A stretch of DNA of 64,000 bases from Thalia democratica (taxonomy: Eukaryota), in the NCBI GenBank assembly GCA_965202585.1, contig OZ241830.1:68138001-68202000 (forward strand), given 5' to 3'. Each line of letters starts with the position of its first letter. The first letter of the stretch is position 1. A program made the position numbers. Positions 15,001 to 21,000 of this stretch are shown here, piece by piece.

Positions 15001-18000
15001 ATTATACACAAATTAGAAAAATTGTAACAAAAAAACAAATTAAGTTTTTTTTTACTATCTTGTAAAAATATTATAAAAACTTAAGGTATGTCTGTATAAA
15101 AAATTAAGCTAACATGTAAGATACAGTTATAAGGACTTTTCATTGAAAACTAGCAAAACAAAGTTGATATTTTTAACACAATTACGACAAACTTGACGTT
15201 TTTTTTCTTTGAATAAAATATTTTTTGTTTTTATTTCTATTTTTATTTATTTAATTTTGTTATTGTATTTTTTACTCTCGTTCAAAGTTAACCCTTGGTG
15301 CAAAATCGTCTTTGTACAATTTTGTTTCCTCGTGCAATTTTGTGCCGTCGTGCAAATTTGGCTTCTTGCAATTTTGTGCAATAGTGTAATTTAGTCCCCT
15401 CATGCAATTTTGTCTTCGAGCAATTTAGACCTGTTTCCATAAAAGTTAGTTCAGGTTTTTTGTTTAGTGTTTTCAGTTTTTAACTATTTATTTGAAAACA
15501 ATAATTTAAGTATGACTAAAAATTCTATATAGTCTAGGAAAAAGAACATTTTGCTTCGCAGTGTGATAAATCTTAATTTTTTTTTTAACTTTGAAGACTT
15601 TTTAATGCCTTGTAAACTTGCTTATTTCATTATAAAGATAATAAGTTTTTTGTGTCTATTTAAATTTTACTACTTTACTAATAAAAGTTGTTTAGAATTT
15701 CAAGTTTTTTAAGGTTATTTTAGCCTAAATTGTCAAGTTAAATATTTTTCCAGTGTTCCAGATTTTTTGGCAAACCTAATTTCTACAACTAACCAATATA
15801 ACTTTTAAGTGAATTTCAAAACACCACATTATAGTTTCAATAAAATCTTATACTAAAACAAAAGATATTTGTTACTATATGAAATGGTGAATTAAGTCCA
15901 TAGGAATGTAAATAACCTACTTGATCTTATTCTTTTACTTTTGAATAAGCTACATGTTGCGTTGTGCATATTTTGATATTCGCACCATTTTTTTAGGAAC
16001 TGCCAGTTTAACTCATAGAGTACAAAATGTTTATAATAGTGGGAGAAAGCTAAAAAGTGAATAAATCGAAATCACAAAAAATTTGTCTTCTTCTACATTT
16101 TTTTCTGATATGTCAAATTTTTAAGAATTTTTTTTTGTACATTTTGAAGAATTTAAGAAAAAAAAAATTATGACACAAAAAAAAACAAAATATCTCTTTT
16201 TTTTTTTTTTTGAAAATAATATTTGTTATTTAAGTTTTTTACTATTTTTAATTTGTTATTCAGCTAGGAATGTTGCTGTTAATTTTAAAATTCAAATTTA
16301 TTATGTTATTTTAAGTATTTAAGATTATTTAAACAAAAACCATGAATAGTAAAAAACCAGTTGAAATTTTAATCAAAATGATGAAAGTCAAAACAAGTTT
16401 ATTTATATCAATAAGCAGAAATGTCAATTTGCTGCGGATGAGTGCAAGATATAAAACAACTTATTGGAATTTGAAACAACATCAGAAACAGATATAAAAT
16501 TCTTTCTTGATTTGATGCAAATGAATGCAGATCAAACAGAAGCATTTGACAACGATACGAAAGATGAAAAAAAAACAATCTGCTTTGATTAAATTAGAAA
16601 ATAAAATATTGCATGGTTCAGAGGATAAGCATGTACAAACTGTTTTTAATAAAACAAATGATGGACAAATGTTAGATAGTGAAAACGTATCTTCATTAAT
16701 TTCAACTGGTGTTAATCCATCATATAAAATTGAAATACAACGTAAATTTTCTAATACTGAAGATAAAGCAGTACAAAATGATGGTCAACTTGAAACTTTG
16801 GAATCTGAAGTCTTATCATGTCTTGATCCATCGTTTTATAAACAATGTGAAACCGACACAGATCAATTTCATCTGTCCGTAAAAACAGAAGACGCTGTTT
16901 ATAATGGAGAAAATAAACCAAAAAAATCTGCTTTGTTTGCATTAGAGGATAAAATAGTACATGATTCAGAGGTTAGGCATGTACAAGCTGCTCTTAATAA
17001 AACAGATGATGGACAAATGTTTAATGGCCAAAACATATCTTCATTATTTTTGGCTAGTGTAAATCAATTATATAAAGCTAAAATACAAAATATTTTTTCT
17101 AATACTGAAGAAAAAGTGATACAAAATTATGGTCAAATACAATTTAATTCTTGTAAAGCTGAGCATGAAGTGCTACAACATGATGTATCAACTAATAATA
17201 AACAATTGTATGTTACATACGAATTAGACAAAGAAAATGAAAATGATATGGAGGTAGTAGATAAACCAGGGTTTAAGTTCAAGTCATTAGATTCAAAATC
17301 AAAAATAAAAAAAGGAATTATATCACTCCCTGGTCAACAACCAATAAAAAAGATAACTAAATAGGAAGTCAATAAAATGAAGAGAAAATAAAATCATCTA
17401 AAAAGAAAAACCTAATTAAAAGAAAAACGAAAGATTTGGACTTAAATCTGTACATTTTGTGATGAGTTTTTAAATTGTGAAGATAATAGTGAAATTGATC
17501 CGGTAATTTGATCAACTGATAAATTAAGTAAAAGAATATTTTTCATGAAATCATTGGATTGTTTCTTGCTGTGTAAAAACATAATGATTAAAAAAAATTA
17601 TACTCTACTTTAGACTTCTACCAACTTGAAACAGTTTTATAGAGAGTTTCTACAACACCACGGATGCCTACATAAAGAATTTCACTGCAATAAGTGTAAA
17701 AAAAGTGCAAGTAAGTTTTAATAACAGGGTTTTTCACTCATGATGTCATGTTGTATATATTTTGGATTGGTTTTTAATTTTATATAAATTCTTACTCAGC
17801 TAAGATTTTTTATAGCTGTCTCAATTAAAAATTGTAGTAAAGTTTGAGTAGTTTGTTTTTAAATACGTTTATTAAACTTGAATTATTTTCATGAAAATAT
17901 GTTGTTTGAAAACGGTATTATAAAATTAAGATAAAATGTCATTTTTGTAACTAAATTATAAGAAAAAAAACTTGAGTTATATCATTTAAGTTGAAAACTT

Positions 18001-21000
18001 TTTTTACAGCTTCAATATTAAAAAGCAACTCTGGAGGTGCAATAAACAGTACAACGGAAAAAGATGTAATTTTGATGTTTCTGAAAAGAAAAATACTATT
18101 TTTGTCGGTAAGTTAAGTTGATATTGAAAAATAAAACTGTCATAAATCCTTTTGAAACGGATTATTATTTTATAGTTATAATAATACTAAAATAGAAATA
18201 AATAACAATAAATAAATATAATAAATATAAAAATATGATAAATATATATCAAAAGAAATGTGATTTTTTTTTAGTTAACCGTACGTAAAACTATTATAAT
18301 AATTTTTGTAGGTTCAACGAAATGGCATACAAACAATATTTTCTTTTTAAATGAACTTACAAATGAAAAGTTTTCCTCAAAAGAAGCGAGTAGCAAATGT
18401 GGCTTTACAAAACAAAGTATTATTGTGGGTTCAAAAAATACCGCAAAGTAAGTACAAGTACCTCATTATTTACAATTTTCATTATCGATCGGTTAGTTAA
18501 ACTACTAAAGCTAAACTAATGAAAAAAAAATTAAAAATTTGACATTTTTGATAAATTTTCTTTTTAAATTGTTTTTGATTGAGTCTTTTTTTATGTTTAA
18601 AAATTATGAAATACATTTTCAAAGCATTTGACATTAATTTTTTTATAAGTTAAGTAGTTATAAGTTGCTTATATTTAGATTTGTGCTAATGCACTTGAAA
18701 ATGGTAAAATTGGAGGGTATGGTAAAACGGTGGAAATAGAAGAAATTGAATTAAAATTAAATAAAAATGCTCATAAAAGCAGTAAATCATTGAAATGTCA
18801 GTTGCTTGGAGGTGTTGAATTAGAAAGTTCTAAAGCCTTCGTAGTGTATTTGGATGATGAAAATAAGAACAGTCCATCAGTTGAGTCTCTGATTGTCAAA
18901 CATGTTATACCTGGGAGCATTATAAACTATAAAGGAGAAAAAGGACTTTTAGATATAACTAAATTGAAAGAATACTCTTTAATTAGTTTTTTTCAATCAG
19001 GTTTGTGTGAGAAGTTATGGGATGAAATAAGATCTAATGTAGCAAGAAAGGGATTGAAACTATCTTTAGTTGAGAACTATATAAATAGATATATGTTTTA
19101 CAGAAAATACCGTGATAATACTTTACATCAACTTCTAATCGAAATCAGTTTGGCTTACCCGTTGAAAAATAACAATAAAACATTATCAACAACACAAGCT
19201 GATCAATGTTTTTAGTGCTGGACAAGAACATAAACTGTATCTGTTACGATAACCGAAAGGTTATTCCTTAGACCAAACCTTTTAACTTATGTGTGCTTTT
19301 ATTCTTGTTCGTAAAGTAGGCCATAGTAAAAATAAAAATACTTTATATTTTCTAAACTTATGTTATGTTGTTTAAAAACGCTGTTTTTAATATTGAATAA
19401 TATAGGTATAAGACATTTAATTTTTACGAATATTTTTCTAATTCATCATTATCTTTTTAATAGCAATCATTTGTCACATGCTCTCCTATTTAAATTTTGA
19501 AATATTTAATTTTGAGTTTTAAACAATAAGGTCAACCAATGGATCGCGTGATTAAACAAAAACATTAAAACAGACAATTCATGTGTAATATAGTACATAG
19601 ATATAGAACTTATATTGTGATATTGTTAAAAGTTAATAATAAACCTTATATAGTACTGCATATTAACCGTGAGTTTATTAACGTAAATGTTTTAAAGTTC
19701 TTTAAATATTTTATAATTTTCACATTGATTAATAAAGTAGTTCAAACTTAAATTGTTCTTAAATTATGTTTACCAACATTTGGTTCAAAAATTAACCTAT
19801 ATTATTGAAGTAAAGTTTTTTGTGTTATTGTTTTGTAGGTATTTTTAATTATCGATAATTGTCTTGTTTAATTTGTCTTGTCAGATTTATATAAATATCA
19901 TCAAGTATTTAAAAGATAATTATTAAATAAAAAAGGTAGTTAATGAGTATATCAACACCCTAATCCTACAGTTTCAATTGAATTTATCTTTGTTTTTTTT
20001 AATTTATTTATTGTTAAGACTTCAAAAAGGATAATTAGCTAAATCTCTAAAGTGTTTGTTTTGAATAGGGGTACTTAGAAGTATCTATAGTGAAGTAAGT
20101 TTTAACTTGCCCGAAAAAATTCTAAGCAGGACGAACAATCGAATACAGTTATTATTTTCATGATGTTGTCCAGCTGAATCCTACCATAAGTTGTATGTAT
20201 ATATGTATGCATGTCAAATATAAAAGAGCAATTTAATTTTGAAGTTGATATGCAGCTGACATGTTGTTTATATTAATGGACACAAGAAGTATATTTTGTT
20301 TATTTTGTCACTAAAACACAAAAACATTATAACTAAACATTATAAAAGTAAAATTAGCTCATAAGTTAATAAAAGTAAGCCTAACAAGCATTATGTCCTT
20401 TTTAATTATTTTGTTTTTTGCGTTTTATTCTCTAAAAAAAGAAGCTTTATAAATAACTGATAGAAAACACATGATAATTACCAAGTTCGTTTGTTTCAAG
20501 TATAAATTCTTTGTTTATACTACATTTCGTTTAAATTTAGTGTCTTTATTTATTTTTTAACATTATTCTTATTGTTCAGTTTGCTGAGAAAATTATAAAA
20601 AAAATTGTTGTGAATTTTGAATGATTTTTTGAAATACTAATTTTGTTCAATTGATAAGTTTCTTCATTGATTTTATAAGTACATTTTTTTCGGTCTATTT
20701 TTAGTTTAAGGTTAAAACTGTGTTAAGAAGTATAAAAACAATGAAAATATACTGTGAAATGACTTTAAACGTGTATTTAAATAACTGTGTAGTATAACCA
20801 GATTGCAAAGATACTGTAAAGCTACTAAAAATGTGTTGTTTACTAAAAAAAATTGATGATGACAAAAATTTACATATATGATAGGTATTGTATCAAACAA
20901 TTTTTTTTCTAGTTATAGGTTTTTCCGGGTACTTTTTCGAAATTTTTCATTTTCAAGATTTTTTAGACTGACTAGTCAAACTAAAGGTTTTTCCGGGATT

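What the first reader, a model, noticed from the sequence alone, without database searches (positions are those of the whole stretch)
16342..19215. Domesticated Merlin/ISXO2 transposase fused to a long acidic N-terminal region, apparently dying
Seen: the transposase region is split by four spliceosomal introns and has no TIRs that I could find. It keeps the Cys-rich N-terminal motifs and helix-turn-helix-like segment, but not the catalytic triad: VEIDE is VEIEE, the SD(G/C)W Asp is NYKG, and only the last Glu (CEKLW) remains. It follows a ~1.15-kb exon with an extra CxxC (ICTFC). Known: Merlin/IS1016 enzymes need DDE; host co-option of transposases often loses DDE and gains introns; Merlin domestications are less documented than hAT, piggyBac or Harbinger ones. 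Inference: a host DNA-binding protein born from Merlin, with this copy later pseudogenised.
Basis: partly seen in the sequence, partly recalled or inferred. Interest (0 to 1): 0.65.

Follow-up and report, generated by a model that had tools for sequence, protein, structure and literature searches.

The report
Dead Merlin transposase gene, damaged copy
This is a gene descended from a Merlin-type jumping-gene enzyme that has lost its cutting residues and its transposon ends, belongs to a small conserved family of such tamed genes, and in this particular copy looks broken.

Summary
Window 17446-19215 (+) encodes, in five collinear pieces split by four GT-AG introns, a relative of eukaryotic Merlin / IS1595 (ISXO2-like) transposases. 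Pfam sees nothing exon by exon. An exhaustive phmmer search with the last exon gives 55 hits at E<=1e-3, and 19 of the 25 I scanned carry PF12762.

Two of the three catalytic residues are gone (D1 to E21, D2 to K85) and only E111 remains. About 20 residues between D2 and E are deleted. No terminal inverted repeats exceed chance.

These defects are shared by a supported clade of eight sequences (SH-aLRT 95). One is an intact 633-aa ORF (P0056) with the same layout, and it shares the position of the last intron. That fits an old taming event rather than a rotting transposon.

Two corrections:
- The N-terminal ORF is not acidic (pI 7.09).
- The 'extra' CxxC is ancestral to the family (15 of 17 relatives).

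This copy has stops in all frames between the N-terminal ORF and the CxxC, a repeat-unit frameshift, and two best-consensus splice junctions one base out of frame. It is probably a young pseudogene; assembly errors are not excluded.

The parts
16342..16524 (+). ATG 16342 is in the frame of the 279-codon ORF but is closed by TAA at 16495 and two TGA. The repeat-unit homology runs in another frame here (16455-16575).
   Evidence: three-frame translation; repeat-unit alignment
16525..17364 (+). 279-codon open frame (ATG 16525 to TAG 17362-17364): a lineage-specific N-terminal extension. No detectable relatives, net charge zero.
   Evidence: 0 hits in the 153-489 aa class; no usable Atlas hit; pI 7.09
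16534..16788 (+). Repeat unit 1 of the N-terminal extension. It carries one extra base in the A9 run 16567-16575 relative to unit 2, so its start is out of frame with its end.
   Evidence: 197 of 255 identical, one 1-nt gap
16883..17136 (+). Repeat unit 2, in frame throughout. dN/dS against unit 1 is 1.33 (6.5 synonymous and 33.5 non-synonymous differences over 70 codons).
17362..17445 (+). Broken linker with stop codons in all three forward frames. Frame 1 has TAG 17362, TAA 17389, 17410 and 17443. Frame 0 is open only at 17376-17462. This cuts the N-terminal ORF off from the CxxC.
17446..17502 (+). Start of the transposase-derived part, at the 3' end of exon 1: first CxxC (CTFC, codons 17449-17460), ending in phase 0 at CCG|GTAATT.
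   Evidence: an upstream CxxC in 15 of 17 relatives; P0056 has CKYC at the matching place
17503..17613 (+). Intron 1, GT..AG, phase 0. The only in-frame combination found.
17614..17710 (+). Exon 2: the FYREFLQHHGCL motif and the first CxxC of the zinc ribbon (CNKC). The best donor, CAA|GTAAGT, leaves one base.
   Evidence: profile positions 75-99
17711..18009 (+). Intron 2. The best-consensus donor (last exon base 17710) and acceptor (first exon base 18010) are one base out of frame. In-frame GT-AG alternatives: 17710/17991, 17704/17991 and 17714/18010.
18010..18107 (+). Exon 3: second half of the zinc ribbon (LWRCNKQYNGKRC), followed by SEKKNTIF.
   Evidence: 17 of 28 identical to P0056; profile positions 103-138
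18108..18311 (+). Intron 3, TCG|GTAAGT .. TTTTGTAG|, phase 1, in frame.
18312..18447 (+). Exon 4: the segment between zinc ribbon and catalytic domain, where relatives have the presumed helix-turn-helix. It has the same length (46 aa) and the same final Lys as P0056.
   Evidence: profile positions 149-178, weak at 6.5 bits
18448..18678 (+). Intron 4. The donor reads AAA|GTAAGT and leaves two bases, while the acceptor TATTTAG| is phase 0, so the junction is one base out of frame. The sequence looks like AAG|GTAAGT with one G missing. The only in-frame GT-AG pair (18424/18679) would drop 8 residues.
   Evidence: the phase-0 junction in the relatives is inferred from P0002 against P0056
18679..19215 (+). 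Exon 5: the catalytically dead RNase H-like (DDE_Tnp_IS1595-derived) domain plus conserved C-terminal helices, ending in stop TAG 19213-19215. D1 equivalent E21 (18739-18741), D2 equivalent K85 (18931-18933), E111 kept (19009-19011).
   Evidence: (pLDDT 86)

Best explanation
The locus belongs to a small, old gene family that descends from a eukaryotic Merlin / IS1595-type transposase.

The ancestor of the family lost the second catalytic Asp and about 20 residues of the catalytic core. It lost its terminal inverted repeats, carries spliceosomal introns and has a long, fast-evolving N-terminal extension in front of the transposase's own CxxC. What is kept is the N-terminal CxxC plus zinc ribbon, the following linker or helix-turn-helix segment, the RNase H-like scaffold and, most strongly, the C-terminal helices.

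The likely job (inferred, not shown) is binding DNA without cutting it. It could act as a regulator, or as a repressor that recognises Merlin-like ends. The N-terminal extension would serve as a protein-contact or disordered effector region.

The window's copy is probably a recently disabled member. Its N-terminal ORF is cut off from the transposase-derived part by stops in all frames. One repeat unit is frameshifted. Two of the four introns have best-consensus sites one base out of frame. The last exon is still as well conserved as in its relatives.
For: Merlin descent:
- phmmer with exon 5 gives 55 hits at E<=1e-3, for example P0006 at 3.1e-9 and P0007 at 6.3e-9. Of the 25 scanned, 19 carry PF12762 at E<=0.01.
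- Atlas: 30 of 30 hits are PF12762 clusters.
- NCBIfam IS1595 model on the relative P0056: E 6.4e-9.
- The exon-by-exon profile hits are collinear.
- The AlphaFold model has pLDDT 86 and pTM 0.79, with the order b1-b2-b3-a-b4-a-b5-a. Its best PDB matches are retroviral integrase cores and the Metnase transposase domain, at E about 5e-3 and probability up to 0.99.

Dead enzyme:
- E21, K85 and E111 sit at the D, D, E columns.
- The clade mates P0057, P0058, P0059 and P0001 have Lys even at the Glu column.

Family rather than fossil:
- The eight-row clade is one branch with SH-aLRT 95.
- P0056 is an intact 633-aa ORF on a 2174-nt contig with the same layout.
- P0002 is identical to P0056 over the 173 residues downstream of one point (173 of 174 aligned) and differs upstream of it. 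That point coincides with the window's intron-4 acceptor.
- No TIRs beyond chance and no second copy in the window.
- The neighbours are ordinary host genes. No other transposon domain was found in the 132 ORFs scanned, of 150 ORFs of at least 55 aa.

Damage in this copy.

Damage is recent:
- The window's end branch is 0.11, the shortest in its six-row subclade apart from the near-duplicates P0058 and P0059.
- It differs at 2 of 22 deeply conserved columns. Its relatives differ at 0 of 20, 1 of 21, 2 of 22 and 9 of 29.
Against: - No DNA of the relatives could be fetched, so there is no dN/dS, no synteny and no copy count in the source genome.
- The window's own protein is not among the hits of the two searches that used exon 5 as query. 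The source genome therefore seems absent from that collection, and dispersed near-identical copies cannot be excluded.
- The organisms of all relatives are unknown (unnamed ENA and JGI records). 'Across species' is inferred from 41-73% identity only.
- P0056 being a spliced transcript is inferred, not documented.
- The only selection test possible, between the two internal repeat units of exon 1, gives dN/dS 1.33, so no constraint is seen there.
- Three of the frame lesions lie in or beside A-runs (A9 at 16567, A7 at 17698, the A-rich stretch 17362-17445), where long-read assemblies err.
- In-frame alternative GT-AG pairs exist for both bad junctions.
- The 279- and 178-codon frames are still open.
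- Curated profiles do not reach threshold. Pfam gives 0 hits for the window and 19.6 bits against a cut-off of 27 for P0056.
- The fold matches are weak: none at E<=0.001, and TM at most 0.50 when normalised by the query.
Confidence: 0.6

Rival explanations
1. The locus is a working member of the same tamed family. The apparent lesions would then be single-base assembly errors in homopolymers, use of the weaker in-frame splice sites, or a first coding exon that lies elsewhere.
For: - Exon 5 is as conserved as in the relatives: end branch 0.11 and 2 of 22 deviations at deeply conserved columns.
- The 279- and 178-codon frames are open in DNA of about 25% G+C.
- Every lesion is compatible with a 1-nt error, and three lie in or beside A-runs.
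- In-frame GT-AG pairs exist for introns 2 and 4.
Against: - Between 17362 and 17445 no forward frame is open, and the TAA at 17443 directly precedes the CxxC in its frame. More than one correction is needed there.
- The intron-4 lesion is in a GG pair, not a long run.
- Other A7 and T7 runs inside the open frames (16920, 17307, 18987) are not shifted.
- One neighbouring-gene junction that I checked is in frame with consensus sites.
- The only in-frame intron-4 option deletes 8 residues that P0056 keeps.
Confidence: 0.25
2. It is simply the eroded remnant of an intron-bearing Merlin transposon. The relatives would be other eroding copies, with no host function at any time.
For: - Merlin relics without TIRs are common (PMC8101967, passages read).
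- There are several relatives at 63-73% identity, some truncated (P0004 92 aa, P0005 58 aa, P0060 132 aa), and one with many deviations at conserved columns (P0060, 9 of 29).
- No constraint is seen between the exon-1 repeat units.
Against: - Independent decay would not give every clade member the same D2 loss and the same 20-aa gap while keeping the C-terminal helices nearly unchanged.
- Decay would not leave a 633-codon frame open in AT-rich sequence at 52% identity.
- It would not preserve the intron position.
- An enzyme without D2 cannot have spread these copies itself.
Confidence: 0.12
3. The N-terminal ORF (16525-17364) and the transposase-derived exons are two separate genes, or a gene and a fossil, that merely lie head to tail.
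For: - There is no sequence similarity between the window's N-terminal ORF and the N-terminus of P0056.
- The N-terminal ORF has no relatives.
- The two parts are separated by stops in all frames.
Against: - P0056 and three further relatives (P0011, P0047, P0051) also carry N-terminal extensions of 100-340 aa directly in front of the CxxC.
- The transposase-derived part has no start codon of its own between the last stop and the CxxC.
- The two parts are on the same strand with no intervening splice acceptor.
Confidence: 0.1

Closest known systems
Eukaryotic Merlin transposases / bacterial IS1595 family (IS1016 group), Pfam PF12762 DDE_Tnp_IS1595, NCBIfam NF033547
   Same: - Homologous catalytic-domain scaffold.
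- Same N-terminal order: CxxC, then the 'F..FL..HG.L' motif, then a CxxC..C..C ribbon, then a linker, then the core.
- Conserved C-terminal 'Y..RY.F....P...LH.FL.....YP' helices.
   Different: - D1 and D2 are replaced (E21, K85) and about 20 residues between D2 and E are deleted.
- No TIRs.
- Four introns, a long N-terminal extension, and curated profiles below threshold.
- Target-site duplications could not be assessed, because no element ends exist.
Candidate domesticated Merlin / IS1595 transposases of protists: Oxytricha macronuclear DDE_Tnp_IS1595 proteins (PMC3558436), Blepharisma (PMC9942806), Stentor and Perkinsela (PMC8101967). I read only the passages found.
   Same: Merlin/IS1595-derived genes without TIRs that are kept as host genes.
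   Different: - Per those passages, most of those proteins keep the catalytic residues: 7 of 11 in Oxytricha, and complete triads in Blepharisma. They are discussed as possible DNA-cutting enzymes of genome rearrangement.
- The clade here is catalytically dead, has introns and an N-terminal extension, and lies among ordinary multi-exon genes in an AT-rich genome that uses the standard stop codons.
- Whether any of those proteins belongs to this clade was not tested. The sequence lists are in supplements, which were closed.
Catalytically inactive domesticated DDE transposases used as DNA-binding proteins. That preprint has no occurrence of Merlin or IS1595.
   Same: Loss of catalytic residues with retention of the DNA-binding N-terminus and of the fold, presence of introns, and fusion to non-transposase sequence.
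   Different: - The source superfamily is different (Merlin).
- The added part here is a 5' extension of the same exon, not a captured host domain joined by splicing.
- Function is unknown.

Membership tests
Merlin / IS1595 transposase (PF12762, NF033547) | Match to the curated domain profile at its gathering score | tested here: not met
   Pfam gives 0 families for all five exon translations at E<=1. NCBIfam gives 0 for exon 5. The relative P0056 scores 19.6 bits against 27 and 36 bits against 75.
Merlin / IS1595 transposase (PF12762, NF033547) | Significant sequence homology to proteins that carry the domain | tested here: met
   phmmer finds 55 hits at E<=1e-3. Of the 25 scanned, 19 carry PF12762 at E<=0.01 and 16 are above the gathering score. 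Atlas: 30 of 30 hits.
Merlin / IS1595 transposase (PF12762, NF033547) | DDE catalytic triad | tested here: not met
   E21, K85 and E111 sit at the three columns. The segment between D2 and E is shortened by about 20 residues.
Merlin / IS1595 transposase (PF12762, NF033547) | Terminal inverted repeats (starting GG, per PMC8101967) and 8-9-bp target-site duplication | tested here: not met
   The best flanking inverted 24-mer matches 20 of 24, against 19-21 in 20 shuffles. One search shows only AT-rich pairs at 71-87% complementarity. TSDs cannot be assessed without element ends.
Merlin / IS1595 transposase (PF12762, NF033547) | RNase H-like fold of the catalytic domain | tested here: inconclusive
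   The model has pLDDT 86 and the expected order of strands and helices. Foldseek top hits are integrase cores and Metnase, but E>=4.9e-3 and query-normalised TM is at most 0.50.
Merlin / IS1595 transposase (PF12762, NF033547) | Multiple dispersed copies in the genome | not testable with these tools
   There is no second copy in the 64-kb window. The rest of the genome is not available.
Domesticated (host-co-opted) transposase gene | Immobile: no element ends, single locus among host genes | tested here: met
   The neighbours are RRM, ubiquitin-family, SPC12 and patatin exons.
Domesticated (host-co-opted) transposase gene | Intact relatives kept over long divergence, sharing the inactivating changes and the gene structure | tested here: inconclusive
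   The clade of 8 has SH-aLRT 95. P0056 is intact at 633 aa. The intron-4 position is shared. The organisms of the relatives are unknown, so orthology is not shown.
Domesticated (host-co-opted) transposase gene | Purifying selection (dN/dS below 1) and conserved synteny | not testable with these tools
   No DNA of the relatives could be obtained. The only internal test, between the exon-1 repeat units, gives 1.33.
Domesticated (host-co-opted) transposase gene | Expression as a spliced mRNA | not testable with these tools
   There is only the indirect P0056 against P0002 comparison for a relative, and nothing for the window.
Unprocessed pseudogene | Frame-disrupting lesions relative to intact relatives, with introns retained | tested here: met
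   There are stops in all frames at 17362-17445, a 1-nt gap in repeat unit 1, and introns 2 and 4 are out of frame at the best sites. This is valid only if the assembly is correct.

The most novel reading that the evidence does not exclude
The eight-sequence clade is a so-far undescribed host gene family made from a Merlin transposase. It has been catalytically dead since its origin and is kept for its zinc-ribbon and linker DNA-binding head, its RNase H-like scaffold and its C-terminal helices. Each lineage has a different fast-evolving N-terminal effector region. It would work as a sequence-specific DNA-binding regulator, or as a guardian against Merlin elements. The window would show one member caught just after its death.
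Probability: 0.4. Interest if true: 0.6.

Novelty: new member of a known kind. Interest (0 to 1): 0.42.

Why it matters
Tamed transposases are a recurrent source of new DNA-binding proteins, but Merlin has contributed few documented cases. In my three literature searches the only candidates were protist proteins, which mostly keep their catalytic residues.

A catalytically dead, intron-bearing Merlin derivative with intact relatives would add this superfamily to the list of sources of non-enzymatic host proteins. It also gives a concrete set of sequences (P0056 and the clade) for DNA-binding tests.

On the practical side, curated profiles miss this clade entirely. Annotation pipelines would therefore call such genes orphan.

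The particular copy in the window is of limited interest by itself, because it is probably a young pseudogene.

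Tried and rejected
- Pfam on the five exon translations: no transposase hit. The only row was TYW2_N at E 0.11. One search failed because one stretch I gave contained stops, so I dropped that stretch.
- NCBIfam on exon 5: nothing.
- Profile of A2 against PDB sequences: one chance-level row, a kinesin at E 0.88.
- Homologues of the 279-aa N-terminal ORF: none in the 153-489 aa class, and no usable Atlas hit.
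- Rfam and tRNA scans of the window: nothing.
- Alternative genetic code (ciliate-type TAA/TAG = Gln): rejected by reading. TGA also closes the frames in exon 1, and the relatives end where the window's TAG lies.
- A tiny intron to bridge 17362-17445: rejected. No AG lies between the TAA at 17443 and the CxxC.
The genome-contig scan (bacteria and archaea only) was not used, as it cannot hold this eukaryotic family's loci. No DNA of relatives was therefore seen.
- The spliced (joined) protein model was not built or searched. All searches were exon by exon.

Full report
**What is there**

The window is AT-rich (19-33% G+C in 2-kb steps). It has no N and no tRNA or Rfam family.

On the + strand between 16342 and 19215 there are two large open frames under the standard code: 16525-17364 (279 codons) and 18679-19215 (178 codons). 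Three short open pieces lie between them. In DNA of this composition, frames of that length are not expected by chance. That is my own estimate from base composition, not a tool result.

**Is it Merlin-derived?**

Curated profiles say nothing.
- Pfam on the five exon translations, searched one by one, gives no transposase family at E<=1.
- NCBIfam gives nothing for exon 5.

More sensitive searches do find the relationship.
- An exhaustive phmmer search of 1.84 billion representative proteins with exon 5 gives 55 hits at E<=1e-3, 5 at <=1e-10 and 2 at <=1e-30.
- I scanned 25 of these 55 with Pfam. Nineteen carry PF12762 (DDE_Tnp_IS1595, 'ISXO2-like transposase domain') at E<=0.01, and 16 of them are above the gathering score. 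Five have no family: P0001, P0004, P0005, P0012 and P0015. One, P0026, is a cadherin-repeat protein that I take for a chance hit.
- The ESM-Atlas feature search returns 30 of 30 hits in PF12762 clusters, at score 0.93 with 182 of 256 features shared.
- A profile built from 44 relatives, window left out, hits the exon translations in collinear order: exon 2 at positions 75-99, exon 3 at 103-138, exon 4 at 149-178 (weak, 6.5 bits) and exon 5 at 186-371 (178.6 bits).
Homology itself is solid.

**Introns**

The 633-aa protein P0056 was the only hit of the 'longer' search, at 52% identity to exon 5. It aligns to the window in four collinear blocks: 17629-17697, 18026-18109, 18305-18424 and 18679-19164. 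All four gaps between the five coding pieces, the first piece being the 3' end of exon 1, are bounded by GT..AG.

P0002 is a 189-aa ORF call from another contig. It aligns to P0056 with 173 of 174 residues identical. The 173 residues from VCANALEN to the end are identical, and the sequences diverge immediately upstream. That divergence point coincides with the window's intron-4 acceptor.

The simplest reading is that P0002 comes from genomic DNA and reads into the intron, while P0056 comes from a spliced product. This intron position would then be shared between lineages that are only 52% identical. That is an inference, because I could not see the DNA.

Everything was done exon by exon.

**Catalytic residues and ends**

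- In alignments with bona fide members (VEIDE ... SD.W ... IER.W), the window has E21, K85 and E111 at the D, D and E columns. It also lacks about 20 residues, the 'H..VNH..F' stretch, between the second and third.
- The AlphaFold model of exon 5 (45-row alignment, pLDDT 86.0, pTM 0.79) has the strand and helix order of an RNase H-like core. E21 lies on the first strand, K85 at the end of the fourth and E111 in the following long helix.
- Foldseek against the PDB finds no match at E<=0.001. The best matches are retroviral integrase catalytic cores and the Metnase transposase domain, at E 4.9e-3 to 2.7e-2 and query-normalised TM 0.36-0.50. This is compatible with the fold but weak.
- No terminal inverted repeat is present. 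The longest pairs within 13000-22500 are AT-rich at 71-87% complementarity.
- The best inverted 24-mer between the 3 kb on either side matches 20 of 24. That lies within the 19-21 seen in 20 shuffles.
- No second copy exists in the window, by blastn or by tblastn.

1. The N-terminal ORF is not acidic. D+E 39 equals K+R 39 and the pI is 7.09. The most acidic 60-aa stretch has net charge -9. The relative P0056 does have an acidic N-terminus: pI 5.35, and residues 240-320 have 29 D/E against 2 K/R.
2. The CTFC at 17449-17460 is not an addition brought by the extra exon. Of 17 full-length relatives that match my zinc-ribbon pattern, 15 have a CxxC about 35-40 residues upstream, usually within a few residues of their start. 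The transposase-derived part therefore begins at about 17446, inside exon 1. The extension is a 5' prolongation of the transposase's own first exon. [quoted passage not shown] The cysteine pattern is nevertheless there, although Pfam sees it only once and weakly (P0018).

**A family, not a lone fossil**

- The window's exon 5 groups with P0057, P0058, P0059, P0001 and P0060 (63-73% identity), then with P0003 and P0056. All lie on one branch with SH-aLRT 95, in a tree of 50 rows.
- Before building the tree I left out P0026, P0029, P0032 and P0053 (very long or concatenated proteins), P0002 (the same sequence as the end of P0056) and fragments under 120 residues.
- Every member of this clade that covers the column lacks the second Asp. 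The 20-residue gap is seen in the clade rows of alignment A1, where P0056 is represented by P0002.
- Four members (P0057, P0058, P0059, P0001) have Lys even at the Glu column. P0056 and P0003 still have the first Asp.
- The C-terminal helices (RKGL..VE.YINRYMFYRKY..NTLH.LL.EISLAYPL) are the best conserved part.
- Shared inactivating changes, an intact 633-codon relative with the same layout and a shared intron position are what an early loss of activity followed by long maintenance would give. Independent decay of transposon copies would not give this pattern.
- The neighbourhood consists of ordinary genes: RRM exons at 8.4-10.2 kb, a ubiquitin-family exon at 27.5 kb, SPC12 at 33.3 kb and patatin exons at 44 and 56 kb. 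No other transposon domain appears in the 132 ORFs scanned, of the 150 ORFs of at least 55 aa. The 18 left out overlap the finding or duplicate repeat ORFs.

**Is this copy dying?**

Four things are wrong in the assembled sequence.
1. Between the TAG at 17362 and the CxxC, no forward frame is open. Frame 1 has four stops, the last (TAA 17443) directly before the CxxC codons. Frame 0 is open only at 17376-17462, and no start codon or acceptor can rescue the CxxC.
2. The two 255-nt repeat units of exon 1 (16534-16788 and 16883-17136, 197 of 255 identical) differ by one 1-nt gap in the A9 run 16567-16575. The beginning of unit 1 is therefore out of frame with its end.
3. Intron 2's best sites (CAA|GTAAGT, TTTTTTTACAG|) are one base out of frame. 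Three weaker in-frame pairs exist.
4. Intron 4's donor reads AAA|GTAAGT and leaves two bases, while the acceptor is phase 0, as inferred for the relatives. The sequence looks like AAG|GTAAGT minus one G. The only in-frame pair would remove 8 residues that P0056 keeps.

Against a long-dead gene:
- Exon 5 has a short end branch, 0.11.
- Exon 5 deviates at only 2 of 22 columns that are invariant in six relatives. Its relatives deviate at 0 of 20, 1 of 21, 2 of 22 and 9 of 29.
- Both long frames are still open.

Against real lesions:
- Three of the four sites lie in or beside A-runs, where assemblies err.

For real lesions:
- Other A7 and T7 runs inside the open frames are unshifted.
- One junction checked in the neighbouring RRM gene is in frame with consensus sites. 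That is a single control.

I conclude that this is probably a young pseudogene (about 0.6). About 0.25 goes to a working gene blurred by assembly errors or unusual splicing.

**Selection**

The only test I could run is dN/dS between the two exon-1 repeat units. It gives 1.33, from 6.5 synonymous and 33.5 non-synonymous differences over 70 codons, with differences by codon position of 19, 12 and 9. So there is no sign of constraint on the N-terminal extension. That fits its lack of any relatives and its non-alignment with P0056. It says nothing about exons 2-5.

**Mechanism (inferred)**

The protein family most likely binds DNA through the CxxC and zinc-ribbon head and the following segment. 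It would use the dead RNase H-like domain and the C-terminal helices as a scaffold or dimerisation surface, and it cannot cut. It could be a regulator, or a repressor that competes for Merlin ends. None of this was tested.

**Literature**

Three full-text searches were run. From the papers below I read only the passages found by term search.
- PMC8101967 proposes domestication of Merlin in Stentor and Perkinsela, and notes chimeric proteins as candidates.
- PMC3558436 describes 11 Oxytricha macronuclear DDE_Tnp_IS1595 proteins without TIRs. Seven have catalytic residues, and they are expressed in conjugation.
- PMC9942806 describes similar genes in Blepharisma with complete triads.
- The vertebrate host-transposase fusion preprint does not mention Merlin or IS1595.
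- The broad DDE survey only lists the superfamily.
- I found no description of a catalytically dead, intron-bearing Merlin-derived gene family with an N-terminal extension. The supplements of PMC8101967, which list Merlin-related proteins with incomplete domains, were closed and may contain members.

**What stayed unchecked**

- The organism of the window and of every relative.
- Copy number in the source genome.
- Synteny, dN/dS for exons 2-5 and expression.
- The metagenome and viral contig collections, which were closed.
- The longer and shorter length classes for the N-terminal ORF.

**Verdict**

The finding is real and largely read correctly. It is a new member of a known kind, a tamed and catalytically dead DDE transposase, from a superfamily with few such cases. 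The copy in hand is probably a recent casualty.

Noticed in passing
window 8085-11043 (+): Multi-exon gene with at least three RRM_1 pieces (8460-8693, 8878-9045, 9981-10154). By eye it looks like a poly(A)-binding protein. One junction (8681|GTACGT ... CAG|ATC) is in frame with consensus sites.
   Followed up: partly
window 38104-38544: 30-nt minisatellite with 14.6 copies at 82% matches. It is open in several frames on both strands, giving repetitive 'KRGKFGNN'-type ORFs of 90-138 aa that are probably not genes.
   Followed up: no
window 41532-58649 (-): Patatin-like phospholipase exons (44129-44299 and 55984-56184, both below Pfam's cut-off), plus a 302-aa open frame (57744-58649) with no Pfam family. 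Probably one large gene with long introns.
   Followed up: no
window 27524-27706 (-) and 33311-33562 (+): A ubiquitin-family exon (26.2 bits) and a signal-peptidase SPC12-like exon (22.2 bits, just under the cut-off). Ordinary host genes downstream of the finding.
   Followed up: no
window 47991-48421, 22997-23162, 15317-15413: Tandem duplications: 221 nt x 2.0 (89% matches), 81 nt x 2.1, and 18 nt x 5.5.
   Followed up: no
window 16017-16103 and 51525-51612: An 88-nt inverted match at 74% identity just upstream of the finding. Possibly a small dispersed repeat. It does not flank the gene.
   Followed up: no
relatives P0017, P0031, P0038 and others: Eukaryotic Merlin-like proteins carry a CxxC, a conserved 'FL..HGVLP' motif and a CxxC..C..C ribbon at the N-terminus. 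One paper (PMC8101967) says Merlin lacks the IS1595 zinc-finger domain. Pfam's model detects the ribbon in only one of the 25 proteins scanned.
   Followed up: partly
relatives P0060 and P0059: P0060 deviates at 9 of 29 deeply conserved columns and is truncated, so it may itself be a decaying copy. P0059 equals P0058 apart from a 10-residue insertion that looks like a read-through of extra sequence.
   Followed up: no
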